Below are positions 41,323 to 56,603 of a stretch of DNA of 64,000 nucleotides, piece by piece. Position 1 is the first letter of the stretch; the number at the start of each line of letters is the position of its first letter. The notes below the pieces were generated by a model that was given only the letters and a program-made list of their open reading frames with translations, was not told the origin of the DNA and ran no database searches. The stretch comes from an uncultured Actinomycetota bacterium (GTDB taxonomy: Bacteria; Actinomycetota; Actinomycetes; Mycobacteriales; Mycobacteriaceae), in assembly GCA_963786995.1 (NCBI GenBank), contig CAWBBH010000001.1, positions 110,550 through 174,549 on the forward strand, given 5' to 3'. A program made the translations under genes and the position numbers.

Positions 41323-41364
41323 TTCGCTATATAGTCCGATCCGAGCCACGAGGGAGCCACCACG

Positions 41365-42760
41365 ATGAGCGTTACGTCGAAGCCCGCCGACGGGTTCAGC
41401 CGCGAGGTGATGGCCGCCTACGAGAACTGGAGTTTCTCTAGCCTCCCCGCGTCGGTGGTGGAGCGAATCAAGCTCTTCGTGCTGGACACCCTTGGCGTGA
41501 TCGCCGCCGCCGCTGACGCCCCGGCATTCCGGAGGTCAATCGCCTCCTTCTCGGCTGGGAGGGCGGTGGCCCGTCGACGATGCTCATCGGCAAGGGACGC
41601 GTCGCGCCGCCGACAGCCGCGCTCGCCAACGGCGCAGCCGCGCACGCGCTGGACTTCGACGACAATCACGATCCCGGCCGTGTGCACGCCTACGCCACGA
41701 TCCTGCCCGCGGCCTTGGCGGCGGCGGAGGCGCGGGGCGGCGTGAGCGGGCGCGACTTCATCGCGGCGCTCGCCACCGGCGTCGAGCTGCAGGCGCGCCT
41801 CGGGCTGTCCGCACCCAACAGCATGGCCAAGGGCTGGCACCCGACGACTGTCATGGGCGCGCTCGGTGCGGCGGCCGCGGCCGCGCGGGTGCTCGATCTG
41901 CGCGCTGGGCAGTTCTCCGACGCGGTCGCGCTCGCCTATCACCAGGCGTTGGGCACGCGTCAAGCATTGAACGACGGCGTGCTGGCGAAGCGCCTCGGAG
42001 CGGGGTTCGCTTCGCGCAACGGCACGGCCGCGGCCTTCCTCGCCGAGGCGGGGCTCACGGGGCCGACGCGCTTCCTCGAGGGAGAAGCCGGGCTGTTCCA
42101 ACTCTATGAGCGCGGCGAGGTCCTGCCCGACGCCCTCCTGCAGGATCTGGGCCAGACGTGGGAGATCATGACGCACAGCATGAAGCCGTATCCGTGTTGC
42201 CGATGCACTCATAACGCGATCGCCATCGGTCGAGAGCTGCACCGAGAAGGCTTGAATCCAGCGAACATTCAGAGCGTCGTCATCGGCATGAGTGAAGTGA
42301 ACAACAAGATCGTCGGCGAGCCCTACGACATTGCCAGGGACTCGACGATCCACGCCCAGTTCAACGCCGGCTACTGCTTCGCGGCGGCTCTCATCCACGG
42401 CAAGGTCGATGTGGCGACCTTCCAGCGGCCCCAGATCTCCGATCCCAATTTCAGTGCCTCGCCGCGCGTACGAGCGTCGTGGTCGACGATGCGATCGACG
42501 CGGGCGCCATGGCCCCGACCCGGGTGACCATCCTCTGCAAGGACGGTCGGCGCATCGAACGCTTCCTCGAGTTCATGGAGGGCAGCCCGGAGCAGCCCAT
42601 GACCGACGACGAGGCGATTACCAAGTTCACGAGCTGCCTCGAGATGGGGCTCGGCGCCGCTCCTGCGGTGATCAACTCCCTCGCGGACAAGGTCCTTGAT
42701 CTGGACAACTGCGCGGACATTGCAGATATCGTCGCGCACTTCCCTGCCCTGAACAGCTGA
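41365..42760 (+). pseudogene. MmgE/PrpD family protein (2-methylcitrate dehydratase-like fold), about 2-3 apparent frameshifts
   Basis: The blocks are VVERIKLFVLDTLGVIAAAADAP, ANGAAAHALDFDD, GWHPTTVMGALGAAAAAARVL and MKPYPCCRCTHNAIAIG. The C-terminal piece VVVDDAIDAGAMAPTRVTILCKDGRRIE is in another frame. Confidence 0.75.
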
Positions 42761-42847
42761 CCGCGACGCGTTCAATAGCGCTCAACAGCAAGTCAATTCG
42801 ATATTGACGACGCTGGATCGCGGATACCGACGCGCCATTGGCAGCCG

Positions 42848-42910
42848 GTGAGCACAATGCGCAAAACCTGAGAATCGCGTCATTTCAAAGCTTGTGAGCA
42901 CAAGCGAGCC
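42848..42910 (+). promoter_or_regulatory. Bipartite conserved motif, copy 2 (GTGAGCACAATGCGCAAAACC-N22-CTTGTGAGCACAAGCGAGCC) 80 nt upstream of the ATP-grasp gene
   Basis: Box 1 matches copy 1 at 21/21 nt and box 2 at 19/20 nt. The spacers are unrelated. Confidence 0.5.
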
Positions 42911-42990
42911 TTCTGGACCAGAGATCCGTAATTTCGGATGTGCAAGCAAGACCGAGAACACCAAACACTTACTCACACAGGAGAACTCAA

Positions 42991-44211
42991 ATGACCACCA
43001 CAATCGATCAGATCAAGACCGAAGTCCAGAATGCGCCATCGCTGTACGGCAGGCCGATCGCTGTTCTGCACCAGGCGGTGACACCCCCGTCCTTGAATGG
43101 AGCGGTCAAGCCCTCGAACCCTTTCGGGTACCGGGATTCATCCGCCGACATCGCGAACGCACTGGCGCAGGCAGGCTGTGACGTGCTGACCCCCGCGAGT
43201 GATCCGCGTGCCGATGTCGACGCGGATTGGACCTACCCGGACACGCTCGAGGGAATCGCCCAGGCTGTGGCCGACGGAGCCGAAATTCTGTGGGCCAACA
43301 CCAGCTTGTTCGACGAGCATCCGATGGCCAACTTCGGTTCCAACGACGGGCTCTATGTCGTCGGCCAACCGCTAGACGTCGTCGAGAAGTTCGAAGACAA
43401 GGACGTGTGCCAGGCGGCCATCAGCGCGATCGGCGTCCCGGTGCCCGTGCAAGCCCTCGTCAACGTGGAGAACGGACCGGCGAAAGGTCAAATCGAGAAG
43501 GCAGTTTCGCAGAACGGGCTGACATTCCCGGTCATCGTGAAGCCCGTTCGCGGCCGCGGCAGCGCCGGTGTGAAGGTCGTCGGCTCCGTTGCGGAAGCGG
43601 CAGAGCACATCGAGTCCCATGTCGGACCGAAGTTCGGCAACAAGTTCCTCATCGAGGAGTACCTGGCCGGCAGAGAACTCGCTGTGACAGTGATGCCGCC
43701 GGGAACCTATGAGACGGCTGACGGCATTCACAACGAACCCACCCACTGGACGCTTCCGGCGATCGAGCGGACAGGCCATCACGGCGGCGTGATGCCGTTC
43801 AGCGGAGTGGTGCCGATCCAGTCCAACAGCAAGCCGGCGGGCGACGATGATCAGCTCCGCGAATTCGGCCGGCATGCTGTTCGAGTCGCGCAGTTGCTGA
43901 AGGCCACTGCACCGATCCGCATCGATTGCCGGGCAGACGCCAACGGTGTCATCAAGGCCATCGACATCAACATGAAGCCCAGCATGACGGGCCCGGGCCG
44001 GCCGGGCCGGGAGCAGATGATCAACCTGTCAGCCATGTCGGGCGGCGAGATCGGCTGGAACTACACCGAAATGCTGGCGGCGATCGCGGCCAACGCGGCT
44101 CCGATCCAGCGGATCACGCAGCCGACGTCGCGTGGGCGCTCTATCTCCGCAGGGCACGCTCTCTCCAAGGCATGCGCCGCCAAGCCGTGCATGGCTCTCC
44201 ATGCCGCGTAG
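42991..44211 (+). CDS. ATP-grasp domain protein (carboxylate-amine ligase-like; substrate unknown)
   Basis: The ATG at 42991 follows CAGGAGAAC. It has the ATP-grasp core LTFPVIVKPVRGRGSAGVKVV...KFLIEEYLAGRELAVTVMP...IRIDCRADANGVIKAIDINMKPS. The 406-aa frame is intact. Confidence 0.65.
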   Translation: MTTTIDQIKTEVQNAPSLYGRPIAVLHQAVTPPSLNGAVKPSNPFGYRDSSADIANALAQAGCDVLTPASDPRADVDADWTYPDTLEGIAQAVADGAEILWANTSLFDEHPMANFGSNDGLYVVGQPLDVVEKFEDKDVCQAAISAIGVPVPVQALVNVENGPAKGQIEKAVSQNGLTFPVIVKPVRGRGSAGVKVVGSVAEAAEHIESHVGPKFGNKFLIEEYLAGRELAVTVMPPGTYETADGIHNEPTHWTLPAIERTGHHGGVMPFSGVVPIQSNSKPAGDDDQLREFGRHAVRVAQLLKATAPIRIDCRADANGVIKAIDINMKPSMTGPGRPGREQMINLSAMSGGEIGWNYTEMLAAIAANAAPIQRITQPTSRGRSISAGHALSKACAAKPCMALHAA

Positions 44212-44247
44212 TTGCGACGAGCTGGCAATGACAGCCAACCCGAGACA

Positions 44248-44289
44248 CGAGGGTCCGTATGTGGGTCACAGCCCATATGCGGACCCTCG
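44248..44289. terminator. 18-bp stem-loop between convergent ATP-grasp and VIT1 genes (candidate bidirectional terminator)
   Basis: CGAGGGTCCGTATGTGGG (44248-44265), loop TCACAG, CCCATATGCGGACCCTCG (44272-44289). There are 16 Watson-Crick pairs plus 2 G-U pairs. Confidence 0.5.
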
Positions 44290-44366
44290 TCGTTGTGCGC
44301 ACAAAGCGTCAGAGCGCAACACGGAACGATCAGGACGGTCAATGACCGTGCTCGACCCGGTTGGCG

Positions 44367-45098
44367 TCAGCCGATCGTTACGCCGACGAGATGGCCGATC
44401 GCGAAGGTGATCGCCATGGCCAAAGCGCCGCCCACGGTCACGCGCAGGATTGGGCGTAAAGGGTTTGCGCCACCGAGGCGGGCGGCCGCCCAGCCGGTCA
44501 TCGCCAGCGCGAGAAGCACCACGGCAACGGTGACCCCGATGCGCGTAGACGCGGGCGGGAGAAGAATAGCGATGAGCGGCAGTAGCGCGCCGACGGTGAA
44601 CGACACCGCGGACGACATCGCCGCAAGCCACGGATTGGTCAGCTCTTTCGGATCAATACGCAGCTCGATCTCCGCGTGGGCGGCGAGCGGATCATGAGCA
44701 GTCAGCTCCACGGCGGCCTGCCGCGCGGTCTGCGCGGAGAGCCCTCTTGCCTCGTACAGCGCGGTCAACTCGTCCAGCTCGTCAGCCGGCTGTGACGCCA
44801 GCTCTCGGCCTTCGGTGTCGAGAAGTGCCCGTTCGGTGTCGCGCTGAGTGCTGACAGACACATATTCGCCGACCGCCATCGACAGCGCTCCGGCTGCCAG
44901 TCCCGCGATGCCGGCGGTGAGCACCGGCCCTCGCTCGGCGGTAGCGGCGGCGACGCCGATGACAATGCCGGCCGTCGAGACGATCCCGTCGTTGGCGCCC
45001 AAGACGGCGGCGCGAAGCCAATTGAGTTTGTTGGCGACTGACCCGTGGTGTGGTCGCGTCTTCCCAGGCGCCTCCCCGGGCACCGGCTTCGATGTCAT
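44367..45098 (-). CDS. VIT1/CCC1 family iron/manganese transporter
   Basis: LRAAVLGANDGIVSTAGIVIGVAAA...GALSMAVGEYVSVSTQRD plus C-terminal TM helices are diagnostic of the VIT family. The 243-aa frame is intact. Confidence 0.85.
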   Translation of the reverse strand: MTSKPVPGEAPGKTRPHHGSVANKLNWLRAAVLGANDGIVSTAGIVIGVAAATAERGPVLTAGIAGLAAGALSMAVGEYVSVSTQRDTERALLDTEGRELASQPADELDELTALYEARGLSAQTARQAAVELTAHDPLAAHAEIELRIDPKELTNPWLAAMSSAVSFTVGALLPLIAILLPPASTRIGVTVAVVLLALAMTGWAAARLGGANPLRPILRVTVGGALAMAITFAIGHLVGVTIG

Positions 45099-45205
45099 GT
45101 ATGGAGGCTAGACCGGCCGCTGACGCTTCCGATGATTTACGGCAAAGCGACTTGATCACTCGACAAGGAGGTTTAACCTCCGAGCTAACCCTCCAAGAGA
45201 GTGAT

Positions 45206-48200
45206 ATGTCGCGAATTTTCCTGAGCCATTCGAGTCTCGACTCACGCGAGGCATTGGCCCTCAAACGGTGGTTGGTAGAGCAGGAGCCGCCCCTGGCGAC
45301 TGACATCTTCCTCGACATCGATCCTGAGGTGGGGCTCCGTCCGGGCGAGCGATGGAAGGACAGACTGCAGCAGGCCAGTGCCAGATGTGAAGCCGTGGTC
45401 TGCCTCCTCTCGAGCAACTGGGAGGCGTCCCACGAGTGCAGGACCGAATACCGCGTCGCGGAGAATCTGAACAAGCAGATCTTGTGTGCCCGCCTCGAGC
45501 CCTCGGCCGGTGATGACTTGACCTCGGAGTGGCAGCGGTGCGACCTGTTCGGCGAGAGTGACTTGACCTCGGTCGACCTGGACGACGGCCCTCCGGTCAT
45601 GTTCGCCACCAAAGGGTTGTACCGGTTGCGAGACGCCATCCGCGGCACCGGCATCAGCGCGCACTCGTTCGTATGGCCGCCCCCCGACGACGTGGACCGG
45701 GCTCCATATCGCGGGTGGGAGCCATTCGAACAGGTCGATGCCGCCGTGTTCTTCGGCCGGGACGCGGCCATCGTGCACGGACTGGACGAACTCCGCGGCA
45801 TGAGAGTGGCTGAGACGAAGTCGCTGTTCGTCGTGTTGGGTCCGTCTGGCACAGGTAAGTCGTCGTTCCTACGCGCGGGCCTGATGCCGCGTCTGGCCCG
45901 CGAGGATCGTCGTTTCACGCTGTTGGGCGTCGTGCGGCCCGGTCGCAACGCGCTCACGGGTGATGCCGGTCTGGCAGCGGCGATTTGGCACGCTCGAGAC
46001 AGGCTGGGCCTGTCAGCACCAAGCCTGGGCGAAATCAAGACCGCGTGCCACGGCGACGTCGAGCGAGTCCGCGAGTTGCTGATCGAGGTCCAGCAGACGG
46101 CGACGGATCGGTTACCGGATCCGGTGAGCGGCGATGACAAGCCGGCCCCTCCGACGTTGATACTCCCCCTGGACCAGGCCGAGGAATTGTTTTCCGCCGA
46201 CGCCGGAGCCCAGGGAGCGGAACTGATGTCGTTGATTCGACGGCTGACGGTACGAACGGAACTGCAACCGCTGAGCCTCATCGTCGTCGCCACCATCAGG
46301 ACCGACCGGTTTGAGGTGATGCAAACGCACCCCGAACTGGCTGGTGTGGAATCAAGGGTCTTCGATGACCTCAAGCCAATGCCGCCGACCCAGTTCAAGG
46401 AGGTGATCACCGGCCCGGCGGCTCGTGCCAGCGAGGGTGGCCGCCGCCTGACTGTTTCACCTGACCTGGTGGAGCGGCTTCTCGTCGACGCCGCCGAGGG
46501 TGCCGACACACTGCCGATGTTGTCGTTGACGCTGGCGCGCCTATATGCCGACTACGGGTCGACGGGTGAGTTGAGAGTCGAGCAATACGAGGCGATGGGC
46601 GGGATGCGCCGTGTCGTCGAGACAGAGATCAACGAGATTCTCGCCGCCGATCCGGACCGACGGCGCCACCAACTCGACTGTCTGCGAGCCGCTTTCATTC
46701 CGTGGCTCGCCACCGTGAACCCGGAGAATGACCATCCGTTGCGTCGGATGGCCCGCTATGACGACTTACCCGAGGAAAGCAGACCGCTGATCGACGCACT
46801 GGTCGCCAAGCGGCTGCTGGTCAAGGACCAGCTCGACGGCCAAGTCGTGGTCGAGGTCGCCCTGGAAAGCCTACTGCGCCAATGGGATGAATTGTCAGAA
46901 TGGCTTCGCGAGCAACGCCATGAACTCCAGGTTGCCGACGACGTCGAGCGTGCCGATACGGCGTGGAAAAGCAACAGCAGGGATGCGGCCTGGCTTCTCG
47001 CCGGTTCTCGTCTCGCCGACGCCGAGAGAGTCGTGAGCTCTCCGACTTTCGCCCAGCGCATGAATCCCGTTCGCGAATACATCGACGCTTCTCGACAAAG
47101 CGAGAACGATCGGTTAGCGGCGGAGGAAGAGCGCCGGCACGCCGAGTTACACAATGCGCGAGAACGGCAAGCAGTTGCCGAAGCGCACGCGAGGGACTTG
47201 CGCAAGCGATCGCGGATCCTGCGTGCCGTTGTTGCAATCACCGCGGCGGTCGCCGTCGTTGCCGTCGTCGGCCTCGTCTATGCCGTAAGCGCCCGCGGTC
47301 AGGCGCAAGACCGGTTCCGCCAGGCCACAAGCGTGCGGTTGGCCTCCGATTCCGACAACATGTTGAACGGCAGCAGGCCTGGCAGTGATGAGAGGGCCCT
47401 GCTCGAGCTACTTGCCGCAAATGCGCTCTCTCCGAATACATTCGACCAGAACATGTACTCCGTCGGTGTCAAGACATTCAACACCCTCAAGCTGATCGAC
47501 CCCTCAATGGGGGTCTTCGGTGCCATCTTCAGCCCCGACGGCCGCCGCTTCGTCGCAGGAGGCGATAACGGAACGCTGCGCTTGTACGACGCTCAGACCG
47601 GCCTTCAGCTGGGTTCGGACCTGGTCGGACACACCAAGTGGATTGACGGTGCCACCTTCAGTCCCGACGGTCACAAGATCGCTTCCGTAAGTGACGATCT
47701 CACCGTGCGACTGTGGAACGCCGACACCGGTCGACCCATCGGCCAGCCGATGTTGGGCCATCAAGACCAGGTGTGGGCGGTATCGTTCAGCCCGGACGGG
47801 CACATGCTCGCGTCCGGCAGCGTGGACCGCACCATGCGGCTGTGGAACGCCGACACCGGCCGACCCATCGGCCAACCGCTGAGACATCCAGACAGGGTCA
47901 TCAGCGTGGAATTCAGCCCCGACGGCCGGCACATCGCCAGCGGGGACGCCGACGGAATATTGCGGTTGTGGGACGTCACGACCGGGCAGCAGTCCGGGCC
48001 AGCGTTGAAGGGTCACACCGGAGAAGTGATCGATGTGGCGTTCAGTCCAGACGGCCGCCGAATCGCGTCGGCGAGCGGCGACGGGGACGTGCGGTTGTGG
48101 GACGCCCAGACCGGCTTGCCGATCGGCGAACCCCTGGCCGCTCAGGGGAGCCGGGTGCTCAGCGTGGCGTTCAGCCCCGACGGTCACAGGATTGCCTCCG

Positions 48201-49428
48201 GCAGTGGTGACGGCGCGGTAAGGCTGTGGGACAGCCGACACTCGCCAGTTGCTTGGTGCGCCCATGCTGGGCCAGAAGGGTGGAGTGTGGACTCTATCGT
48301 TCAGCCCCGACGGAACCCGCCTGCTCTCGGGATCGCAGGACGGGACGATCCGATTGTGGGATGTCGGCATACGTCGGCCGCTCATCGGCCACATCGGGGG
48401 CGTGGCCAGTGTGGCGGTGAGCCCGAACGGACATCGCATCGCGTCGGCTGGTGACGACGGCACGGTGCGCTTGTGGGACGCCGACAACGGCCGCCCGATC
48501 GGCAAGCCGCTTGTCGACAGCGACAAGCCGTTGTCCAGCGTCGCGTTCAGCCCGGATGGACAGCGTCTCGCGGTCGCCGGCGCCGACGGCACGGTCTCGG
48601 ATGTGGAACGCGGACACGGGCACGCTTATCGGTGACCCGATCAATCCCGGGCAGGGACCACTGACGAGCGTGGCGTTCAGTCCCGATGGACGCCGTTTGG
48701 CCATCGGCGGTGGCGACACGTCGGTTGGCGTATCGAGCGACCACGATGGCACCGTCCAGTTGTGGGATGTCAAAACGTTCCGTCCCGTCGGTGGGCCGCG
48801 GAAACACGGCGAACGGGTGAACAGTGTTGCGTTCAGTCCTGACGGGAACCGCATCGTCTCCGGCGGCAACGAGGGTGACAACACCGGCTCGGTGAGGTTG
48901 TGGGACGCCAACACAGGTCAAATGATTGCGGCAACCACGATCGGCGAGGCGCAGCGGATTGTATGGGCCGTGACCTTCAGCCCCGACGGGCGCCGTGTCG
49001 CGGCCGCCGGTGTCGACGGTTTCATTCAAGTTTTGGATGCCGGCGGGCTCGACACAATCGGTGAGCCGATGAAAGGCCATGAGGACAGGGTCGTTTCTTT
49101 GGCGTACAGCCCGGACGGCCGCACAATCGCTTCCGCCAGTCGCGACGAAACCATCCGGTTGTGGAACGTGGAGTCCGGCCAGCAGGTAGGTGATGCGTTG
49201 ACCGCGCACACCGACAACGTGAACAGCGTGGTGTTCAGCCCTGACGGCCAGCGCATCGTTTCGGGCAGCACCGACGGTACTGTCCGAGTCTGGCCAGCCG
49301 CTGCAGGTTCAAAAGAACTGTGCGAGAAGTTGACCCAAAACATGAGCCACAAGCAGTGGAACGAGTGGGTGTCGACCGACATCGACTACATCAAGGTCTG
49401 CCCCGATCTGCGGATCCCGCCGGACTAG
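45206..49428 (+). pseudogene. TIR domain / nSTAND-like P-loop NTPase / hydrophobic helix / 14x WD40-repeat protein, paralog 1 (about 1407 codons; two apparent +1 frameshifts near 48235 and 48597)
   Basis: The TIR is MSRIFLSHSSLDSREALALKRWL...VVCLLSSNWEASHECRTEYRVAE. The NTPase lead-in is PYRGWEPFEQVDAAVFFGRD. Walker A is VVLGPSGTGKSS (45838-45864) and Walker B is LILPLDQAEELF (about 46157-46192). A coiled-coil is followed by the helix ILRAVVAITAAVAVVAVVGLVYAV (47216-47287). There are 14 repeats of the (F/Y)SPDG...RLW(D/N) type. The tail is NMSHKQWNEWVSTDIDYIKVCPDLRIPPD. Length is 3n+2. Confidence 0.8.
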
Positions 49429-49430
49429 AC

Positions 49431-52400
49431 ATGTCGCGAATTTTCCTCAGCCATTCCAGTCGTGATGCGCGTGAGGCGCTGGCCTTGAAGCGCTGGTTGG
49501 TGGGCCAGGAGCCGCCGCTGGCGACCGACATTTTCCTCGACATCGATCCGGAAGTGGGCCTACGGCCGGGAGAGCGATGGAAGGACAGGTTGCAGCAGGC
49601 CAGTGCCAAATGTGAAGCAGTGGTGTGCCTGCTGTCGAAGAACTGGGAAGCGTCGCATGAGTGCAAGACCGAGTATCGCGTCGCGGAGAATCTGAACAAG
49701 CAGATTTTGTGTGCCCGCCTCGAGCCGTCGGCCGGTGACGACTTGACGTCGGAGTGGCAGCGCTGCGACCTGTTCGGCGAGAGTGACTTGACCTCGATCG
49801 ACGTGGGCGGTGGACCGCCGGTGATGCTCGCCACCGGTGGCTTGTACCGGTTACGAGACGCCATCCGCGGCACCGGCATCAGCGCACATTCGTTCGTATG
49901 GCCGCCGCCAGACGACGTCGATCGGGCTCCGTATCGCGGGTTGGGAACCATTCGAACAGGTCGATGCCGCCGTGTTCTTCGGCCGGGACGCGCCAATTGT
50001 GCATGGGCTCGATGAGCTGCGCGGCATGAGACTGGCCGAGACGAAGTCGCTGTTCGTCGTGTTGGGCCCGTCTGGCACAGGTAAGTCGTCGTTCCTCCGC
50101 GCGGGTTTACTGCCACGGCTGGCCCGCGAAGACCGTCGGTTCACGCTGTTGGGCGTCGTGCGGCCGGGTCGCAACGCGCTCACCGGGGATTCCGGCCTGG
50201 CAGCGGCCATTTGGCATGCTCGAGACAAGCTGGGCTTATCGACACCCAGCCTCGGCGGGATCAAATCGGCATGCACCGAGGACATGAGGCGACTTCGCGA
50301 GCTGCTGCTCGAAGTACAGCAAGCAGCCGCGGATCGGTTACCGGATCCGATTCGCGGCGATGAGAAACCGACTCCCCCGACGCTGATTCTGCCGTTGGAC
50401 CAAGCCGAGGAATTGTTCTCCGCTGACGCCGGAGACCAAGGGGCGGAGCTGATGTCGCTGATTCGGCGGCTGACGGTGCGAACGGATCTGCAACCGCTGG
50501 GCCTGATAGTGGTCGCCACCATTCGGACCGACCGATATGAGGTCATGCAGACCCATCCCGAACTGGTCGGCGTCGAGTCACGGGTTTTCGACGACCTCAA
50601 GCCAATGCCGCCGACCCAGTTCAAGGAGGTGATCACCGGCCCGGCGGCTCGTGCAAGCGAAGGGGGCCGGCGCCTCGCAATTTCACCGGACTTGGTGGAG
50701 CGGCTTCTCGTCGACGCCGCCGAGGGCGCCGACACACTGCCGATGTTGTCGTTGACGCTGGCGCGACTATATGCCGACTACGGCTCGACGGGTGAGTTGA
50801 CAGTCGAGCAGTACCAGGCGATGGGCGGGATGCGCCGTGTCGTCGAGACAGAGATCAATGAGGTGCTCGCCACCGATCCCGACCAACGAAGCCGCCAACT
50901 CGATTGTCTGCGCGCGGCTTTCATTCCATGGCTCGCCACGGTCAACCCACATAACGACCAGCCGATGCGTCGGGTGGCCCGCTATGACGACCTGCCCGAG
51001 GAAAGCAGACCACTGATCGACGCACTGGTCGCCAAGCGGCTGTTACTCAAGGACCAGCGCGACGGCCAAGTGGTGGTCGAGGTCGCCCTGGAAAGCCTGC
51101 TGCGCCAGTGGGATGAGTTGGCAGACTGGCTTCGCGAGCAACGCCAGGAACTTCAGGTCGCCGATGACGTCGAGCGAGCCGATACCGCATGGCGAAGCAA
51201 CGGCAAAGATCCGGCATGGCTTCTCGCGGGTTCCCGTCTTGCTGACGCCGAAAAAGTTGTCGGCTCAGCCACCTTCACACAACGGATGAATCCTGTTCGC
51301 GAATACCTCGACGCTTCTCGACAAAGCGAGAACGAGCGGGTCGCCGCGGAGGAAGAACGTCGGCACTCCGAATTACGCAATGCGCAAGAACGGCAAGCAC
51401 AGGCCGAAGCCCACGCGACCGCCTTGCGCAAGCACGCGACCGCCTTGCGCAAGCGGTCGCGGATCTTGCGTGCCGTTGTGGCAATCACCGCGGCAGTCGC
51501 CGTGGTTGCCGTCGTTGGACTGGTCTATGCCATCAGCGCCCGCCATCAGGCGCAAGACCGATTCCGCCAGGCGACCGGCGTGCGTCTGGTCGCCGAGTCG
51601 GACGGCATCTTGGACGACAACAGGCCGGGCAGTGATGAAAGGGCCATGCATGAGCTACTTGCCGCGAATGCGATCTCTCCGAACACATTTGACCAACAGT
51701 TGTACTCAGCGGCGGTCAAGACCTTCGACACCCTCAAGCTCATCGACACCTCGACGGGAACCTTCGGTGGCGCCCTCAGCCCCGGTGCCGCCTTCAGCCC
51801 TCGCGGTGACCGCTTCGTCACTGCAGGCGACCACGGAACATTGCGCATGTGGGACACTCAGACACGGCCAACAGGTGGGCAAAGACTTTACCGGACACAC
51901 TGAATGGGTTAACGACGCTGTGTTCAGTCCCGACGGTGACCGGCTCGCGACCACAAGTGACGATCGCACCGTCCGGCTGTGGAACGCGGACACTGGGGAA
52001 CCGATCGGCCGGCCAATGACAGGCCATGAAGACGAGGTGTGGGGCGTGGCGTTCAGCCCCGACGGGCTCATGATCGCCACGGGCAGCGTGGACACCGACT
52101 TGCGGCTGTGGAACGCGAAAACCGGCCAGCCCATCGGCCAACCAATTGACCATCCCGCCGAGATTGTCTGCGTGGAATTCAGCCCCGACGGACGGCGCGT
52201 CGTCACTGGCGGTTACGACGGGGCTGTACGGATTTGGGACGTCGGCACCGGGCAGCAGATCGGTCCTCCACACAGAGTCCACGAGGACGACACGACGGAA
52301 ATCATCATGGACGTGGCGTTCAGCCCCGACGGCCGCAGACTCGCTTCCGCGAGTGCCGACGGGGATGTGCAGATATGGGACGGGCGAAACCGGCCTTCCG

Positions 52401-53673
52401 ATCGGCGCTCCCCTGACCGGTCACGGGACCCAGGTGATGAGCGTGGCGTTCAGCCCCGACGGCCACCGGCTTGCTGACGGAGGTAATGACGGTGCGGTGC
52501 GGCTGTGGGACGTCGACACCAGGCAATTGCTCGGTGCCCCCATGATGGGCCACAAGAGCGCGGTGTTTACTTTGTCGTTCAATCCGGACGGAACCCACCT
52601 GCTGTCGGGAGCGCAGGACGGGACGATCCGATTGTGGGATGTCGGCATACGTCGGCCGCTCGTCGGCCACATCGGAGGAGTGTCGAGTGTGGCGGTGAGC
52701 CCTGACGGAGATCGCATCGCTTCGGCTGGTGACGACGGCACGGTGCGGTTGTGGAACGCCGACAACGGCCGTCTGATCGGCAAGCCGCTCATGGCCAGCG
52801 GGCAGCCGCTGACCAGCGTCGCTTTCAGCCCGGATGGACGGCGTCTCGCCACCGCCGGCGCCGACGGCACCGTCCGGATGTGGGATGTCGGACGCAGGCC
52901 GGCCGTTGGTGCGCCGATCAATCCCGGGCAGGGACCACTGACCAGCGTGGCGTTCAGTCCCGAAGGACGCCGCGTGGTTATCGGCGGTGGAAACAGCGTC
53001 CGGTTGTGGGATGTCCAAACGGGCAGTCCCATCGGTGAGCCGCGGATACACGGCGAACTGGTACACAGCGTCGCGTTCAGTCCCGACGGCAACCACATCG
53101 CCTCTGGCGGCATGGAGACCGGCTACAACGGCACAGTGGGGTTGTGGGACGCCAACACAGGTCAATTGATACGGGCAGTCCCAATCGGCGGCGCGGATGT
53201 AGTTGTGTTCGCAGTGTCCTTCCGCCCCGACGGGCGCCGCATCGCGGCTGCGGGTGGCGACGGCGTCATTCAGCGGTTGGATGCGGGCAGTCTCGACAAA
53301 GTCGGCGAGCCAATGCAAGCCCATGAGGACACGGTCGTTGCGTTGGCGTACAGCCCGGACGGCCGCTCGCTCGCGTCCGCGAGTCTCGACGAAACCATCC
53401 GGGTGTGGGACACCGAGTCGGGCAAGCAGGCAGCTGATGCGTTGATCGGCCATACCGACAACGTGAACAGTGTTGCGTACAGTCCCGATGGCCAGCGCAT
53501 CGTTTCGGGCAGCACGGACGGTACTGTCCGGGTCTGGCCTGCCATTGCAGGTCCACAAGACCTGTGCGACAAGCTCAGCTGAGAACATGAGTCATAAGCA
53601 GTGGAACGAGTGGGTGTCGCCGGACATCGACTACATCAAGGTCTGCCCCGATCTGCCGATCCCGCCGGATTAG
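49431..53673 (+). pseudogene. TIR domain / nSTAND-like P-loop NTPase / hydrophobic helix / WD40-repeat protein, paralog 2 (about 1414 codons; four apparent frameshifts near 49945, 51865, 52385, 53578)
   Basis: The architecture matches paralog 1: MSRIFLSHSSRDAREALALKRWL...WEASHECKTEYRVAE; VVLGPSGTGKSS; LILPLDQAEELF; helix ILRAVVAITAAVAVVAVVGLVYAI (51463-51534); WD40 repeats; tail NMSHKQWNEWVSPDIDYIKVCPDLPIPPD. Length is 3n+1. Confidence 0.8.
51412..51453 (+). repeat. Perfect 21-bp tandem duplication (CACGCGACCGCCTTGCGCAAG x2) inside paralog 2, encoding HATALRK-HATALRK
   Basis: Two identical in-frame units at 51412-51432 and 51433-51453. Paralog 1 has a single related unit (HARDLRK). Confidence 0.9.
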
Positions 53674-53701
53674 CGAGGTGAGCGGAACCCGGTGCCCGTT
53701 C

Positions 53702-55474
53702 CTACCGGTCATCGCCGATGCGCGTCAGCTGCCCGGCATGGCCTGGGCTGGTGGCGGATCGGACGGCTCTGAGATCGACCAGGGCGAGCGCTTCAGGGAT
53801 CTGACGTACCGCGTCGCGATCGAGATCGGCGATGTCGTCCGGCAACTCGTCGAACGGAACCAGGTAGGGCGTGACCTTTCGCTCAGCGTCTTTGGGTCCC
53901 GACCGCCAGCCGGACTCCAGTCGTTCGGCGACCCAACGTTTGTGCTCGGCGATCGCCAGCATCTCGAATTCCTCGTCGGTGAATTCGAACGCGGGTGCCC
54001 CTATGTCGTGCAGCGGCACGATGGTGCATCCGATGCTGCGCAGCTTTACCGGCATGTCGCGGGCTTGAGCTCGGTTGGACTCCTTGCGCGACTCGTCCAG
54101 TTCGGACCATGACGGCGCCTCCTTGCCGTTGGCGAGTTGACCTGCGCGCCAACGGCGGTGGATGGCAACCGCGATCTTCTCGAATGACCCCCCCGCGACA
54201 AGCTCGGCGGTGCACGTGCGCTCCAGCGCCGGGAACACCTCGACGTTCGTCAGCTCGCCACTGGCAGTCGCGTCGGTGATGAGCCGGGCCACTCCATCCG
54301 TGCGTGACAACGCGACGACCATCGGGACGGCGGGATCAAGGTAGTGGCGCAATGTGAGTGTGGCCTCGATCGCGTCTTCGTCGAGGTAAGCGTTCACATA
54401 GGCGCACGTTATCGGGGGCGCTCCCGCGTCGGCATGCACGGCGTCGAGTCGGTGAAGATCACGGACGGACGTCGACGATTCGACGAACCGGCACACCGAC
54501 TCCAGGGCCGGGTACTGGTCGAGAAGCGCGCGAACGCGTTCCTCGGCGCGGTCGTCGACAACCGTGACCCACAGGGGGGTGTCGTCGGGTCGGTCGGTAA
54601 ACCAGCCCCATGCCGAGTGTTTCACCAACCACGTTCCCAGCGAATCAAGGCGACTGACGAGGACGTGCGGGCTGCCGTTATCGGCCTCGACGGGGAACTC
54701 GTCGAGGCACAGCTGCGCACCGACCTCGTCGATGTTGAAGAAGTCCAGTGACGATGGCGCACCACCCGACGAGTTGGCTTCCTGCACGCGCAACAGCCGG
54801 CACAGCTGCGGGTTGCCGATTCGAGCCAGACATCGCAGTTTGTTGCTTCGGCGCTCTGTCGAAAGTCGCCGCGCGACGGCGACGATCTCGGTGTTCACCG
54901 CATCATTAGGGCACACCGCAAGAAGCTGAGACGCGCGCTGAACTCCGGCTCCCCGCAGCGTGTCTTCCAAGCGTGCATCGCCCACGACGACCGGGCTGCG
55001 CCAACTTCGACACACTTCCAAGAGCGGATTCGCGGGTTCTATTTCAACGACGACTACCCGGTGGCCGGCCTTTCGAAGGCGGTCCCCGAACAAGCTGCCG
55101 ACATAGCCCAGCCCGCAGATGACGATGTGACCGCGCATCAGCGGGATGCGGAGCTGTTGAAACCGATCGTGAAACAACAGGGCCAGCCCGCTCAGCGCGG
55201 CCCAGCCAGACACGAGCGGCGCAAGGATCCGAGCGATCTCGATCTTGACCGGTAGCCCCGTCGTGGCAGGCGACCCCATCAAAAACAGCTTGAAGGTGTT
55301 GTAGGCGATGTCGGTCGCCCTAGGGGGATGCTTAGTTGCCCCCTCGACGTACAACTCGTTCAGGTATTCGGTATATCCCAGCCAGCCAAGCGTGAACGCG
55401 ATCGCGGCGGCGAAACCGAGCAAAGCCCAACGGAAGTCAGCGATGAAGCGCCGAATCGACCGGAGGACGCTCAT
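53702..55474 (-). CDS. Membrane protein with 2 N-terminal TM helices (channel-like, no GYG filter), RCK/TrkA-N NAD-binding Rossmann domain and two C-terminal RyR (ryanodine-receptor repeat) domains
   Basis: The TM helices are WALLGFAAAIAFTLGWLGY and IARILAPLVSGWAALSGLALLF. TrkA-N is GHIVICGLGYVGSLFGDRLRKAGHRVVVVE...VVVGDARLEDTLRGAGV. The RyR-like repeats are EKIAVAIHRRWRAGQ...SWSELDESRKESNRAQAR and EMLAIAEHKRWVAERLESGWRSGPKDAERKVTPYLVPFDELPDDIADLDRDAV. The 590-aa frame is intact. Confidence 0.7.
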   Translation of the reverse strand: MSVLRSIRRFIADFRWALLGFAAAIAFTLGWLGYTEYLNELYVEGATKHPPRATDIAYNTFKLFLMGSPATTGLPVKIEIARILAPLVSGWAALSGLALLFHDRFQQLRIPLMRGHIVICGLGYVGSLFGDRLRKAGHRVVVVEIEPANPLLEVCRSWRSPVVVGDARLEDTLRGAGVQRASQLLAVCPNDAVNTEIVAVARRLSTERRSNKLRCLARIGNPQLCRLLRVQEANSSGGAPSSLDFFNIDEVGAQLCLDEFPVEADNGSPHVLVSRLDSLGTWLVKHSAWGWFTDRPDDTPLWVTVVDDRAEERVRALLDQYPALESVCRFVESSTSVRDLHRLDAVHADAGAPPITCAYVNAYLDEDAIEATLTLRHYLDPAVPMVVALSRTDGVARLITDATASGELTNVEVFPALERTCTAELVAGGSFEKIAVAIHRRWRAGQLANGKEAPSWSELDESRKESNRAQARDMPVKLRSIGCTIVPLHDIGAPAFEFTDEEFEMLAIAEHKRWVAERLESGWRSGPKDAERKVTPYLVPFDELPDDIADLDRDAVRQIPEALALVDLRAVRSATSPGHAGQLTRIGDDR

Positions 55475-55813
55475 CGGGACCCATGCACATCAGTGATACG
55501 GCGGCGCCTGCGCGGGCCACTTCGGATCGACCGCATCGAGCGAGCGTAACCGAAAAGATGTTAAGGCAAACAGAAATGCGACATGGTGACTCGGATCGAG
55601 ACCCTGGCTGGGCCAGTCGGGACGGCTCCCGCAGGTCGGCGCAACAGACTGAAAATATCCTGACCGGCCTGTGCCGTCTTCGCGATAATTCTACCGGCGG
55701 CAGGCTTTCAAGGTCAGAATTCGGTTTACTGAATAGGCCGATATCGCGGCGAAATAGAGGCAATACTCCGTACAACGGCTGAACGGCTACGTTCGGGCCA
55801 TTGAGGGGGAAAC

Positions 55814-56305
55814 ATGAATATCGCCGGTGTGTTTGGCGCGGCGGCCGTCTTCGCTGCAGTCGCTATCGGGTTTCCGAGCCCCGCTTGGGCTGGCGGTCCG
55901 ACTACCCCTACTTCACCCAGTGTTCCTGCCCCGGCCGCCTCCGTTGGGGAGTTGAGCGGCACCTATACCTTCACTGTGGACTCCGGAAACACAACTACGT
56001 GGACGATCACACCGTGTGGGCCCGGGTGCGCCAATGTCGCAGCGACAAATTCGTCGGCGGGTAACGCGCCCTATAGCGGGCAAGCGCAGTTGGCGGGCGA
56101 TCGCTGGAACATGACGGCTGCGCGGTCCGATGCCCTCACGTGCGACGACAACACCCGAGCCCCGGGAACGACCATATACTCATGGGGCGCAACAACACTC
56201 GCCGGCACAGCGTTCAGCCAAGCGGGCGCCGGCATGTGTGGCAGCACTGACCCGAACGGTTTCCGTGGTCCTACTTCCGAGTTCACCTTGACGAAAGTCG
56301 CCTAA
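55814..56305 (+). CDS. Secreted hypothetical protein (signal peptide, Cys-containing beta-rich domain)
   Basis: It starts with the signal peptide MNIAGVFGAAAVFAAVAIGFPSPAWA, then a Pro/Thr linker and a 130-aa domain with 4 Cys. I recognise no family. Confidence 0.55.
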   Translation: MNIAGVFGAAAVFAAVAIGFPSPAWAGGPTTPTSPSVPAPAASVGELSGTYTFTVDSGNTTTWTITPCGPGCANVAATNSSAGNAPYSGQAQLAGDRWNMTAARSDALTCDDNTRAPGTTIYSWGATTLAGTAFSQAGAGMCGSTDPNGFRGPTSEFTLTKVA

Positions 56306-56603
56306 GCGAATAGTCGGCAGACGTCCCGGCGCCTCGGGAGCCGGTGACGACTCGACGGTGAGTGAGGGATAGCAGCACTTCCCATGCGCGCATTGGCGAT
56401 GAACTCTGCGCTAATCCGATTGGCACTCAGACAAGTTCACGATGTTTTCGTCGCCCCGGCTGGCTTAGCAGGGTGGCCACACCGCCGTGTGGCCCTAAAA
56501 GGAACAGCTACGACATTCCTGATGGGATGGAAATTTGCGTTGCAACTTGCGGTATGCGCGTGGTCCGTATCGTTCAGGTCTCACGATCAGTGCGGAAGGA
56601 GTC

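What the first reader, a model, noticed from the sequence alone, without database searches (positions are those of the whole stretch)
45206..53673. Tandem pair of giant TIR / nSTAND-like NTPase / WD40 genes: candidate anti-phage or conflict locus
Two head-to-tail paralogs of about 1400 codons each combine three modules. The first is an N-terminal TIR domain (FLSHSS.D ... SHEC(R/K)TEY), whose C-x-x-E position could be the NADase catalytic glutamate. The second is a STAND-type P-loop NTPase with the nSTAND1-like lead-in PYRGWEPFEQVDAAVFFGRD, Walker A GPSGTGKSS and Walker B LILPLDQAEE. The third is a 14-blade WD40 sensor region, enough for two 7-bladed propellers. An effector-NTPase-repeat sensor layout is the logic of Avs/bNACHT/NLR-like immune proteins, and bacterial TIR domains are established NAD-consuming immune effectors. 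I do not know of any characterised system with this layout in mycobacteria, and the tandem pair with only a 2-nt spacer suggests co-expression or hetero-oligomer function. By eye, codon usage here is more AT-rich than in the flanking genes, which would fit horizontal acquisition.
Basis: partly seen in the sequence, partly recalled or inferred. Interest (0 to 1): 0.85.

Follow-up and report, generated by a model that had tools for sequence, protein, structure and literature searches.

The report
Membrane TIR–STAND–WD40 receptors with RyR partner
Two neighbouring giant genes encode membrane-spanning, immune-receptor-like proteins (a NAD-cleaving TIR domain and an ATPase switch inside the cell, a double propeller sensor apparently outside), and in relatives such genes nearly always sit beside a membrane protein carrying a ryanodine-receptor-type domain, recently shown in phages to bind TIR-made signals, which points to an undescribed signalling pathway.

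Summary
The core observation holds. Window 45206-49428 and 49431-53673 (+) encode two paralogs of 1406 and 1412 codons, 2 nt apart, each with TIR_2, nSTAND1 NTPase and 14 WD40 blades. The frames are broken by six single-base insertions. Flanking housekeeping genes carry indels at the same density, and dN/dS stays about 0.13 downstream of the breaks, so these are most likely assembly errors. The closest genome has both genes intact. The AT-rich or island claim fails: GC and GC3 equal the flanks, and the position is syntenic across species.

First, a conserved single transmembrane helix lies between the NTPase and the WD40 region, which predicts an extracytoplasmic sensor. Second, the convergent downstream gene (53702-55474, TM + TrkA_N + RyR domain) is a conserved partner. 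A RyR-domain gene lies within 5.3 kb or less in 21 of 26 homolog loci, in several different arrangements. Five of eight distinct loci holding homologs of the partner carry TIR genes with other ectodomains (WD40, PknH_C, CHASE2). Relatives add CapV-like patatin or SLOG-patatin genes. Two 2026 preprints show that phage RyR domains bind or cleave cADPR isomers.

Best reading: an outside-in, Thoeris-like TIR signalling module. It is a new variant of a known kind and has not been tested experimentally.

The parts
45206..49428 (+). Gene 1: TIR-nSTAND1-TM-WD40 receptor, 1406 codons once the two inserted bases at 48233 and 48597 are removed
   Evidence: ORFs. Indels against the intact ortholog in CP134400.1. 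Restored ORF. 97% identical to P0001, 1406 aa.
45206..45655 (+). Gene 1 TIR domain (res 1-150). The motif SHECRTEY at 45428-45451 holds the putative catalytic Glu81
   Evidence: Pfam TIR_2 1e-12. E81 is invariant in 47 homologs. It aligns with the plant TIR 'WCLDEL' Glu and the SpbK 'CLNEM' Glu. Foldseek match to the RPP1 TNL over 616 columns.
45704..46987 (+). Gene 1 nSTAND1 NTPase module (res 167-594). Walker A at 45839-45865, Walker B at 46157-46186, invariant sensor-like TIR(365)xD
   Evidence: Pfam PF20703, 229.5 bits, model positions 1-378 of 379. Invariant columns. AF2 pLDDT 81; Foldseek hits to Orc1/Cdc6, RPP1, Apaf-1 and Dark.
47051..47365 (+). Gene 1 long continuous helix (res 616-719). 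It contains the predicted transmembrane segment ILRAVVAITAAVAVVAVVGLVYAVSA (res 671-696, 47216-47293), preceded by RKRSR
   Evidence: AF2 helix 616-719. Mean Kyte-Doolittle hydropathy over 19 residues (KD19) is 2.2-3.3 and a single segment is present in 115 of 120 homologs. Net charge is +3.7 before and +1.6 after the segment. 70 of 78 full-length family representatives have it.
47528..49425 (+). Gene 1 predicted ectodomain: 14 WD40 blades (two propellers) plus a conserved C-terminal tail holding the only two Cys of this half (C1372, C1398)
   Evidence: Pfam WD40. AF2 pLDDT 91.7; Foldseek hits 2ymu and Apaf-1. Cys census: median 2 after the TM against 7 before it.
49429..49430 (+). 2-nt spacer (AC) between the stop of gene 1 and the ATG of gene 2
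   Evidence: Sequence read directly. The same spacing occurs in CP134400.1.
49431..53673 (+). Gene 2: paralogous TIR-nSTAND1-TM-WD40 receptor, 1412 codons once the inserted bases at 49941, 51865, 52382 and 53577 are removed. TIR 49431-49880, Walker A 50065-50091, Walker B 50383-50412, TM 51463-51540, tail 53535-53670
   Evidence: Between the paralogs, dN/dS is 0.08-0.12 in TIR and NTPase against 0.37-0.49 in WD40.
53702..55474 (-). Partner gene (590 aa, intact), convergent and 28 nt from gene 2. It has two N-terminal hydrophobic helices (55373-55435, 55172-55237), a TrkA_N/KTN Rossmann domain (54776-55126) and a RyR Repeat12-like domain made of two repeats (53975-54181, 53786-53968)
   Evidence: Pfam TrkA_N 2e-17, RyR 7e-11. 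The family profile hits RyR1-3 Repeat12 at 1e-26 to 1e-20 and TrkA/KefC/GsuK RCK domains at 1e-10 to 1e-7. EH511xxW514, GW522-523 and K533 are invariant. Conserved adjacency to TIR genes.

Best explanation
The locus encodes two paralogous single-pass membrane receptors. Each has a TIR domain and an nSTAND1 ATPase switch in the cytoplasm, a coiled-coil/transmembrane signalling helix, and a 14-blade WD40 double propeller facing the cell envelope.

Proposed mechanism:
1. Binding of an envelope-side cue to the propellers is relayed through the helix. The cue could be an invading phage structure, envelope damage or a foreign protein. (Inferred.)
2. The STAND module exchanges nucleotide and oligomerises. 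(Inferred from family knowledge.)
3. This brings the TIR domains together so that the conserved Glu81 site cleaves NAD+. (Inferred.)
4. The product, most likely a cyclic ADP-ribose isomer, is read by the RyR Repeat12-like domain of the adjacent membrane-anchored TrkA_N-RyR protein. That protein either executes a membrane or ion-flux response or hydrolyses the signal to set a threshold. (Inferred.)

In sister lineages a CapV-like patatin phospholipase or a SLOG-patatin gene sits in the same module as a likely executioner. The two paralogs share near-identical signalling halves and differ in the sensor, so they probably recognise different cues and feed one partner. The six frameshifts are most probably assembly errors, not gene death.

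Shown here: the domain identities, the conserved hydrophobic helix, the paralog divergence pattern and the conserved gene neighbourhood. Inferred: topology, NADase or signal chemistry, the role of the RyR partner, and an immune function.
For: Domains.

TM helix and topology:
- A single strongly hydrophobic segment is present in 115 of 120 homologs and 70 of 78 family representatives. Positive charge is higher on the N-terminal side.
- The half after the TM has a median of 2 Cys, the conserved tail pair, against 7 before it.
- The same WD40 region plus tail occurs directly after a TM in STAND-less TIR proteins. In partner loci it is interchangeable with PknH_C and CHASE2, both established extracytoplasmic sensor domains.

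Partner linkage:
- A RyR-domain ORF lies within 5.3 kb or less in 21 of 26 TIR-nSTAND1 loci. Arrangements include convergent, convergent with an inserted gene, divergent and co-directional abutting. The partners are only 25-30% identical between contexts.
- The RyR profile gives 0 hits in 824 kb of unrelated loci and 1 hit in the 64-kb window.
- In the reverse direction, TIR genes lie next to 5 of 8 distinct loci holding homologs of the partner.

Signal logic:
- Phage RyR R12-like domains bind or cleave 2'cADPR and 3'cADPR through H/W, K/H and K/D residues (PMC13232231; 10.64898/2026.06.04.730250). H-x-x-W and GW are invariant in the partner.
- A CapV-like patatin (PADLOC PDLC00758, 1e-40) lies between the TIR-STAND and RyR genes in 9 loci.
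- TPR-S and a weak SLOG-patatin follow the Rhodococcus plasmid homolog.
- An LSDAT/SLOG + patatin pair lies beside RyR paralogs in L084.

Frameshifts as errors. Both genes are intact in CP134400.1.
Against: - There is no experimental evidence for any step.
- PADLOC finds no known system. The ThsB hits are weak (1e-3 to 2e-4).
- The TIR and RyR genes here are convergent, not an operon.
- Within the window's own clade the adjacency could be plain synteny. The argument rests on the more distant loci.
- Two loci with adequate flanks lack a RyR gene (L016, L024). Three distinct partner-homolog loci lack an annotated TIR (L083, L084, L087). The plasmid homologs in Sinorhizobium and Rhodococcus have no RyR neighbour.
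- The immediate surroundings are housekeeping genes, not a defence island.
- The N-terminal helices of the partner do not match any channel pore.
- Topology rests on hydropathy and charge, with no dedicated predictor or experiment.
- The catalytic-Glu alignment comes from matches with E-values of 0.06-0.5.
Confidence: 0.5

Rival explanations
1. One reading: cytoplasmic Avs/bNACHT-like pattern-recognition receptors. The WD40 repeats bind a phage protein inside the cell, the STAND module oligomerises, and the TIR acts as a terminal NAD+-depleting abortive-infection effector with no partner protein.
For: The tripartite effector-STAND-repeat layout. Fold similarity to RPP1 and Apaf-1. Published STAND surveys treat WD40 sensors as intracellular (PMC13581612). 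TIR domains fused to STANDs are usually regarded as NADase effectors (10.64898/2025.12.03.692087).
Against: A conserved, strongly hydrophobic 19-26 residue segment flanked by basic residues separates the NTPase from the WD40 region in about 90% of relatives. The WD40 half is depleted of Cys apart from one conserved pair. Partner loci swap in PknH_C and CHASE2 ectodomains. RyR, patatin and SLOG neighbours are conserved. No PADLOC Avs, bNACHT or TIR-NLR model matches.
Confidence: 0.17
2. A housekeeping envelope-signalling or stress receptor of Mycobacteriales, not an immune system. The propellers monitor cell-wall state or cell-cell contact, and the TIR with the TrkA_N-RyR protein adjusts NAD metabolism or ion balance (growth arrest, dormancy).
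For: A fixed syntenic position between VIT1 and the RyR gene in at least 8 related genomes. Native composition. Purifying selection, with dN/dS 0.13-0.15 against the ortholog. Housekeeping neighbours and no mobile element in the window. The partner carries a KTN/RCK domain typical of ion-transport regulators.
Against: The sensor half evolves 3-5 times faster than the signalling half between paralogs. Copy number varies between close relatives. Homologs sit on plasmids beside restriction, IS and protease genes, or near TraG, PIN or integrase genes. CapV-like patatin genes are in the module. A mycobacteriophage carries a RyR-domain enzyme that destroys TIR signals, which implies such signals act against phages in this host group (PMC13232231).
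Confidence: 0.2
3. The frameshifts are real, and both genes in this organism are recently inactivated pseudogenes.
For: Six uncompensated single-base insertions break both frames. All six are insertions and not all lie in homopolymers.
Against: Removing the six bases leaves no stop codon or other lesion. dN/dS downstream of the breaks is 0.14-0.18, the same as upstream. Flanking genes show 8 uncompensated 1-nt indels in 8.3 kb against 6 in 8.5 kb here. A class-A PBP and an acyl-CoA dehydrogenase upstream are also split. Orthologs are intact in the 94%-identical genome and in many others.
Confidence: 0.1

Closest known systems
nSTAND1-clade STAND NTPases with N-terminal effector domains (Kaur, Iyer, Burroughs & Aravind 2021, eLife, PMC8195603; Pfam PF20703)
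   Same: The NTPase matches the whole Pfam model at 1e-67. An N-terminal TIR and C-terminal superstructure-forming repeats fit the predicted 'counter-invader' architecture. NCBI already names orthologs 'nSTAND1 domain-containing NTPase'.
   Different: The family is known only from computation. In the papers I could search I found no mention of the transmembrane helix between the NTPase and the repeats, nor of a RyR-domain partner.
Thoeris (ThsB TIR plus a signal-activated effector; types I-XI, 10.64898/2025.12.03.692087)
   Same: A TIR gene is genomically coupled to a second protein with a nucleotide-binding module. Relatives carry SLOG-patatin or patatin genes like predicted Thoeris effectors. 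The TIR keeps the catalytic Glu.
   Different: The TIR is fused to a STAND switch, a TM helix and a WD40 ectodomain. The partner's TrkA_N + RyR layout is not among the listed effectors (no 'RyR', 'TrkA' or 'PF02026' in the text or the held supplements). The genes are convergent. The survey explicitly excluded TIRs in Avs/STAND proteins. PADLOC ThsB matches are weak.
Avs/AVAST, bNACHT and TIR-NLR anti-phage STANDs; plant TNLs (RPP1, ROQ1); Apaf-1
   Same: Effector-STAND-repeat logic. The model's fold matches RPP1 (TIR + NB-ARC) and Apaf-1 (NBD and WD40 double propeller).
   Different: A different NTPase clade, with no NACHT, NB-ARC or PADLOC Avs hit. The receptor is predicted to span the membrane with the sensor outside. 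The known systems are soluble cytoplasmic sensors.
Phage RyR-domain anti-Thoeris proteins: RyDEP (mycobacteriophage DyoEdafos gp78; PMC13232231) and RyR Tad (10.64898/2026.06.04.730250); the animal ryanodine receptor Repeat12 domain
   Same: The partner's C-terminal domain is a RyR Repeat12-type module (profile E 1e-26 to RyR1-3). It has invariant H-x-x-W and GW motifs at the positions the preprints report as ligand-binding.
   Different: It is host-encoded, membrane-anchored and fused to a KTN/RCK domain, and it sits beside TIR genes rather than in a phage anti-defence locus. Sequence similarity to phage versions is low (best tblastn 55% over 38 aa). The His of the K/H pair is Thr in the window clade.
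Mycobacterial transmembrane receptors with extracytoplasmic sensor domains (PknH sensor domain PknH_C; PknD beta-propeller) - from general knowledge
   Same: A single-pass layout with a cytoplasmic enzymatic module and an extracytoplasmic sensor. A TIR-TM-PknH_C protein sits next to a homolog of the partner in M. paraffinicum.
   Different: The output domain is TIR (± STAND), not a Ser/Thr kinase.

Membership tests
nSTAND1 NTPase (Pfam PF20703) | Match to the family HMM above the gathering score, over the full model | tested here: met
   229.5 and 224.2 bits against a cut-off of 27.1. Model positions 1-378 and 4-378 of 379.
nSTAND1 NTPase (Pfam PF20703) | Intact P-loop NTPase motifs (Walker A Lys, Walker B acidic residue, sensor Arg) | tested here: met
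   GPSGxGKSS, D323-Q-x-E-E and T-I-R365 are invariant in 47 homologs. Both window paralogs have them.
TIR domain (Pfam TIR_2 PF13676), enzymatic subclass | HMM match above the gathering score | tested here: met
   49 bits against a cut-off of 28, E 1e-12, for both genes.
TIR domain (Pfam TIR_2 PF13676), enzymatic subclass | Catalytic glutamate at the position of plant 'WCxxEL', SARM1 E642 and ThsB | tested here: inconclusive
   E81 is invariant and aligns with the Glu of a plant TIR (7xoz) and of SpbK (9phb), but in matches with E-values of only 0.06-0.5. No structural superposition of the active site was possible.
TIR domain (Pfam TIR_2 PF13676), enzymatic subclass | NAD+ cleavage or cyclase activity | not testable with these tools
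   Needs biochemistry.
Thoeris | A TIR gene adjacent to a gene for a signal-binding effector, conserved across genomes | tested here: inconclusive
   Adjacency to a RyR-domain protein is conserved: 21 of 26 loci in the forward direction and 5 of 8 distinct loci in the reverse direction. The partner is not a described Thoeris effector, and its role as effector or regulator is unknown.
Thoeris | Match to ThsB models | tested here: not met
   Only PDLC00426 and PDLC00436 at E 1e-3 to 2e-4, 16-19 bits.
Thoeris | Phage-triggered production of a cADPR-type signal, and protection from phage | not testable with these tools
   Needs an experiment.
Avs/AVAST, bNACHT, Rst TIR-NLR | Match to the family NTPase or system HMMs (PADLOC), or to NACHT or NB-ARC Pfam models | tested here: not met
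   No such PADLOC hit. The only NTPase-region hits are mad3 and LmuB at E about 2e-3. Pfam gives nSTAND1 and a weak AAA_16 only.
RyR Repeat12 domain (PF02026), for the partner gene | HMM match above the gathering score, and profile similarity to solved RyR R12 domains | tested here: met
   42.7 bits against a cut-off of 27.4. The family profile hits RyR1-3 at 1e-26 to 1e-20 and the B. thetaiotaomicron RyR-like protein at 1e-12.
RyR Repeat12 domain (PF02026), for the partner gene | Ligand-contacting H-x-x-W, K/H and K/D residues reported for RyDEP and RyR Tad | tested here: inconclusive
   H511-x-x-W514 is invariant. R/D is present at the K/D position. The His of the K/H pair is Thr in the window clade and His in L018 and L021. 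I made no direct alignment to the phage proteins, whose sequences were not at hand.
K+ channel (2TM pore + RCK, MthK/GsuK type), for the partner gene | Pore helix and selectivity filter between two TM helices | tested here: not met
   The profile matches GsuK, TrkA and KefC only over the RCK domain (res 104-219). There is no Ion_trans_2 hit and no TVGYG-like filter.

The most novel reading that the evidence does not exclude
The locus belongs to a previously undescribed, Mycobacteriales-wide 'outside-in' TIR immune pathway. Extracytoplasmic sensors (WD40 double propeller, PknH_C or CHASE2) signal across the membrane, with or without a STAND switch, to a TIR domain. The cADPR-type product of that domain is received by a host RyR-domain/KTN membrane protein, with or without a CapV-like patatin. 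This would be a bacterial counterpart, and a possible evolutionary antecedent, of cADPR-to-ryanodine-receptor signalling. It would also be the natural target of the mycobacteriophage RyR-domain enzyme RyDEP.
Probability: 0.3. Interest if true: 0.9.

Novelty: new variant of a known kind. Interest (0 to 1): 0.7.

Why it matters
If the model is right, it would be, as far as I could find, the first case of a bacterial NLR-like/TIR receptor that senses from outside the cytoplasmic membrane. That would extend pattern recognition in bacteria from the cytosol to the envelope.

It would also assign a cellular role to bacterial RyR-domain proteins only months after phage RyR domains were shown to bind TIR-derived cADPR isomers. 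This gives a concrete host pathway for those phage counter-defences in mycobacteria, where Thoeris-type immunity has not been characterised. It bears on mycobacteriophage therapy, which depends on host range and defence repertoires, and on the evolutionary origin of cADPR/ryanodine-receptor signalling.

Even on the conservative reading, the analysis has practical value. It shows that the frameshifts are an assembly problem and not biology, and it identifies an intact, cloneable version (CP134400.1, 1582007-1606227).

Tried and rejected
- A single-sequence phmmer search of the TIR region against PDB found nothing. The profile search gave only weak hits, though all were TIR domains.
- PADLOC gave no system-level match for the receptors or the RyR partner.
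- TRF found no DNA-level tandem array in the WD40 region, so these are not 'high internal conservation' repeats. It found only a 21-bp duplication in gene 2.
- AT-rich or island hypothesis: rejected on GC and GC3, synteny and the absence of tRNA genes.
- VIT1 upstream as a functional partner: rejected. It is conserved only within the closest clade.
- The amine oxidase inserted between the receptor and the RyR gene in L001, L005 and L009: I treat it as unrelated.
- The partner's N-terminus as a K+ channel pore: not supported.
- Obligate hetero-oligomer of the tandem pair: not supported, because single copies predominate.
- Looking up the window's own contig through the 100%-identical RyR protein P0270 failed. 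There was no gene record and no accession in the cluster.
- A tblastn search of the host RyR domain against phage genomes gave only marginal hits to N4-like Erwinia and Pseudomonas phages, and none to mycobacteriophages in that collection.
- The supplements of the 2026 STAND survey were not available, so I could not check whether nSTAND1 clades are scored as defence-associated.

Full report
**1. What is in the sequence**

The region holds two co-directional paralogs on the + strand. Gene 1 starts at the ATG at 45206 and ends with TAG at 49426-49428. After a 2-nt spacer (AC), gene 2 starts at 49431 and ends with TAG at 53671-53673.

As it stands, neither gene is one open frame. Gene 1 is read in three frames and gene 2 in five. 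Pfam gives:
- TIR_2 (PF13676, E 1e-12, 49 bits against a cut-off of 28) at the N-terminus of both genes;
- nSTAND1 (PF20703, 1.3e-67 and 5.5e-66, full model coverage);
- numerous WD40 matches.

There are 14 blades per protein, counted by the [S/N]P[D/N/E/R]G motif. An AlphaFold2 model supports this count. It covers the C-terminal 747 residues of the 97%-identical ortholog P0001, with pLDDT 91.7 and pTM 0.83. Its best PDB matches are the Nostoc double propeller 2ymu (E 1.5e-57) and the Apaf-1 WD40 region.

A model of residues 1-720 of gene 1 has pLDDT 81 and pTM 0.74. It matches Orc1/Cdc6, the plant TIR-NLR RPP1 over 616 alignment columns, Apaf-1 and Dark.

**2. The frameshifts**

The closest genome found is Mycobacterium sp. 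ITM-2016-00318 (CP134400.1). It is 94.3% identical in DNA to window 39923-58321. It carries the same tandem pair intact, at 1406 and 1412 aa with the same 2-nt spacing and the same flanking genes.

Against it, the window has +1 insertions at 48233 and 48597 (gene 1) and at 49941, 51865, 52382 and 53577 (gene 2), plus two compensated indel pairs. Deleting those six bases restores two ORFs of 1406 and 1412 codons without any internal stop.

dN/dS against the orthologs is 0.146 and 0.127. It is just as low downstream of the breaks, at 0.14-0.18.

Flanking genes carry uncompensated 1-nt indels at the same density: 8 in 8.3 kb (an MFS transporter, PrpD and an amidase) against 6 in 8.5 kb here. Further upstream, an acyl-CoA dehydrogenase and a class-A penicillin-binding protein are each split over frames. 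The frameshifts are therefore a property of the assembly, or of the whole genome, and not of this locus. I put real pseudogenisation at about 10%.

**3. Island or native?**

GC is 0.643 and 0.640 and GC3 is 0.77 and 0.75. The neighbours have GC 0.63-0.68 and GC3 0.77-0.78.

In at least 8 related genomes or MAGs (79-91% protein identity), the gene sits between the same VIT1 gene and the same downstream gene. The window has no tRNA genes.

Copy number does vary. There is a tandem pair in the window, in ITM-2016-00318 and in L001, and independently in L015. The other close relatives have a single copy. More distant homologs lie in other contexts. Some are on megaplasmids (Rhodococcus 58% identity, Sinorhizobium and Rhizobium 39%). 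In the Sinorhizobium case the neighbours are a restriction endonuclease, IS66, a serine protease and another TIR gene.

The nSTAND1 family is very large, with 30,013 cluster representatives at E<=1e-3.

**4. Paralog divergence**

dS between the two paralogs is about 0.5 along the whole length, against about 0.14 between orthologs. The duplication is therefore older than the species split.

Identity between the paralogs is 92% in the TIR domain, 89% in the NTPase and 96% in the TM segment. It falls to 68-72% in the juxtamembrane and WD40 parts. dN/dS is 0.08-0.12 in the signalling half against 0.37-0.49 in the WD40 region.

This is the pattern expected for two receptors with a common output and different ligand specificity. 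It does not suggest an obligate hetero-oligomer, and most relatives manage with one copy.

**5.

Between the NTPase and the propellers lies ILRAVVAITAAVAVVAVVGLVYAVSA (gene 1 residues 671-696, window 47216-47293; gene 2 at 51463-51540). It is preceded by RKRSR.

- A single segment of this kind is present at the same place in 115 of 120 close homologs. Its mean Kyte-Doolittle hydropathy over 19 residues is 2.2-3.3, although its sequence varies. Net charge is +3.7 on the N-terminal side and +1.6 on the C-terminal side.
- It is also present in 70 of 78 full-length family representatives from the exhaustive search.
- AlphaFold places it inside one continuous helix, residues 616-719.

TIR and ATPase domains need cytosolic NAD+ and ATP, so the WD40 double propeller is predicted to face the envelope. 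Three further observations fit this:
- The roughly 720 residues after the helix contain a median of two cysteines, which form a conserved pair 35 and 9 residues from the C-terminus. The N-terminal half has seven.
- The same juxtamembrane motif, WD40 array and Cys-pair tail occur directly behind a TM helix in TIR proteins that lack the STAND module (L081, L082).
- In equivalent genomic positions the ectodomain is replaced by PknH_C or CHASE2. Both are established extracytoplasmic sensor domains (general knowledge).

Topology is still a prediction. I had no dedicated predictor and no experiment.

**6. A conserved partner: a RyR-domain membrane protein**

The gene convergent with gene 2 lies at 53702-55474 (-), 28 nt away. 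It is intact at 590 aa. It encodes two N-terminal hydrophobic helices, a TrkA_N/KTN Rossmann domain (2e-17) and a RyR domain (PF02026, 7e-11).

A profile of its family hits ryanodine receptor Repeat12 domains at 1e-26 to 1e-20. It hits TrkA, KefC and GsuK only over the RCK part, and the N-terminus matches no channel pore.

*Forward test.* I built an HMM from four RyR regions. With it, a RyR-domain ORF lies within 5.3 kb or less of the TIR-nSTAND1 gene in 21 of 26 homolog loci. Three of the five loci without one end at or inside the gene. The arrangements differ:
- immediately downstream and convergent (window, L078, L002-4, L006-7, L014);
- convergent with an inserted gene (L001, L005, L009-13, L017-19, L025);
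- upstream and divergent (L021);
- upstream, co-directional and abutting (L022);
- two RyR ORFs about 5 kb upstream (L015).

The partners are only 25-30% identical between contexts, yet they keep the TM + Rossmann + RyR layout. The same HMM gives 0 hits in 824 kb of unrelated loci and a single hit in the 64-kb window.

*Reverse test.* Homologs of the partner form a small family: 255 proteins at E<=1e-5, mostly Mycobacterium, with one Nocardia among those named. Their neighbours are:
- M. paraffinicum (L079): a convergent TIR-TM-PknH_C gene;
- Nocardia arizonensis (L081): a convergent 944-aa TIR-TM-WD40 gene plus a further TIR gene;
- Mycobacterium sp. OAE908 (L082): a co-directional TIR-TM-WD40 gene and a CHASE2-TIR gene, near TraG and PIN genes;
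- L085 and L086: TIR_2-WD40 genes;
- L083, L084 and L087: no annotated TIR. L084 instead has an LSDAT (SLOG) + patatin pair, and L087 has a patatin 6 kb away.

So 5 of 8 distinct loci have a TIR gene within 7-10 kb.

*Third components.* In nine loci (L010-13, L017-19, L018, L025) a 383-aa patatin sits co-directionally between the receptor and the RyR gene. L015 has a homolog of it. These patatins match the PADLOC CBASS phospholipase-effector model PDLC00758 at 1e-38 to 1e-40. On the Rhodococcus plasmid the receptor is followed by a TPR-S protein and a patatin with a weak N-terminal SLOG (YAcAr) match, and there is no RyR gene. The window itself has no patatin.

**7. Why the RyR domain matters**

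Two 2026 preprints report that phage RyR Repeat12-like proteins neutralise Thoeris. The mycobacteriophage DyoEdafos protein RyDEP hydrolyses 2'cADPR and 3'cADPR. Other homologs, including RyR Tad, bind cADPR isomers with nanomolar affinity. The contacts are an H-x-x-W pair, a K/H pair and a K/D pair (PMC13232231; 10.64898/2026.06.04.730250).

In the partner family, EH511-x-x-W514, GW522-523 and K533 are invariant. A first repeat carries a second H-x-x-W. The His of the K/H pair is Thr in the window clade.

The systematic Thoeris survey (types I-XI plus candidates) lists no RyR or TrkA effector in its text or in the supplements held here. It also removed TIRs in Avs-type proteins by design. Searches for papers linking host RyR-domain proteins with TIR genes found none. 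That is absence from the searchable library only.

**8. Best explanation and rivals**

I favour an outside-in, Thoeris-like module, at confidence 0.5. An envelope-side cue acts on the WD40 ectodomain. The signal passes through the transmembrane helix to STAND-driven oligomerisation. The TIR domains then turn over NAD+ at the Glu81 site. A nucleotide product is read, or degraded, by the RyR domain of the membrane partner. In sister lineages a CapV-like patatin acts as executioner.

The domains, the helix, the divergence pattern and the neighbourhood are shown. The topology, the chemistry, the partner's role and an immune function are inferred.

Rivals:
- a non-immune envelope or stress signalling role (0.2), favoured by the fixed native location and housekeeping neighbours, disfavoured by sensor diversification, copy-number change, plasmid and defence-like contexts elsewhere, and the patatin;
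- real pseudogenes (0.1).

**9. Comparison with known systems and novelty**

The receptor is a bona fide member of the nSTAND1 and TIR_2 families. It has the architecture that the Aravind group predicted to be a counter-invader system (PMC8195603), and NCBI already annotates orthologs accordingly. The protein family as such is not new.

It is not a member of Avs, bNACHT or Rst TIR-NLR by the PADLOC and Pfam models tested, and it does not match ThsB models convincingly.

Relative to what I could find, three things appear new:
- the membrane-spanning topology with an external WD40 sensor;
- the conserved pairing of membrane TIR sensor proteins with a host TrkA_N-RyR protein;
- the patatin and SLOG companions.

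I therefore rate it a new variant of a known kind, with interest 0.7.

Noticed in passing
window 35395-39441 and 40101-42527; 56300-58300: Housekeeping genes are split over reading frames by single-base indels. These are an acyl-CoA dehydrogenase (35395-36972 / 35784-37241), a class-A PBP with transglycosylase and transpeptidase domains (37786-38307 / 38010-38933 / 38659-39441), an MFS transporter, PrpD and an amidase. The whole window looks like an error-prone, possibly long-read MAG, assembly.
   Followed up: partly
window 39923 (left end of the alignment to CP134400.1): Synteny with Mycobacterium sp. ITM-2016-00318 stops here. In that genome the upstream neighbours are a 999-aa Pkinase/NB-ARC/HTH protein (another STAND) and an FHA-BTAD regulator. 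The window instead has PBP and acyl-CoA dehydrogenase genes.
   Followed up: no
window 51412-51454: A perfect 21-bp tandem duplication in gene 2 adds one heptad (HATALRK HATALRK) to the coiled coil just before the transmembrane segment. Gene 1 lacks it. The ortholog of gene 2 has the same length, so it is probably shared. One heptad would keep the helical register of a signalling helix.
   Followed up: partly
L084 7821-14749: Two tandem TrkA_N-RyR paralogs lie next to an LSDAT_prok (SLOG-type) gene and a patatin gene homologous to the one in the TIR-STAND/RyR loci (1e-62). No TIR gene is annotated within 8 kb. This may be a TIR-less or trans-acting version of the module.
   Followed up: partly
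L018 15307-17739, L021 7434-9848, L014 3997-6369, L022 3092-5650, L015 1408-4182, L087 8713-9099: The longer RyR partners (790-924 aa) end in a PGDYG domain (PF14083, function unknown). In L087 a PGDYG protein is a separate small gene just after the RyR gene.
   Followed up: no
L089 14474-17585 (Rhodococcus sp. JS3073 plasmid): The TIR-nSTAND1-WD40 homolog is followed co-directionally by a TPR-S (PF20308) protein and a patatin with a weak N-terminal SLOG (YAcAr) match. No RyR gene lies within 10 kb.
   Followed up: partly
gene 2 TIR region, window 49431-49880: dS against the ortholog is 0.37 here, compared with 0.10-0.20 in the rest of gene 2 and 0.14 in the TIR of gene 1. This could reflect gene conversion between the paralogs in one lineage.
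   Followed up: no
window 45167-45181: A small perfect inverted repeat, GGAGG-TTTAA-CCTCC, lies 25 nt upstream of the gene 1 start codon in the 107-bp divergent intergenic region shared with VIT1. It may well be a chance match.
   Followed up: no
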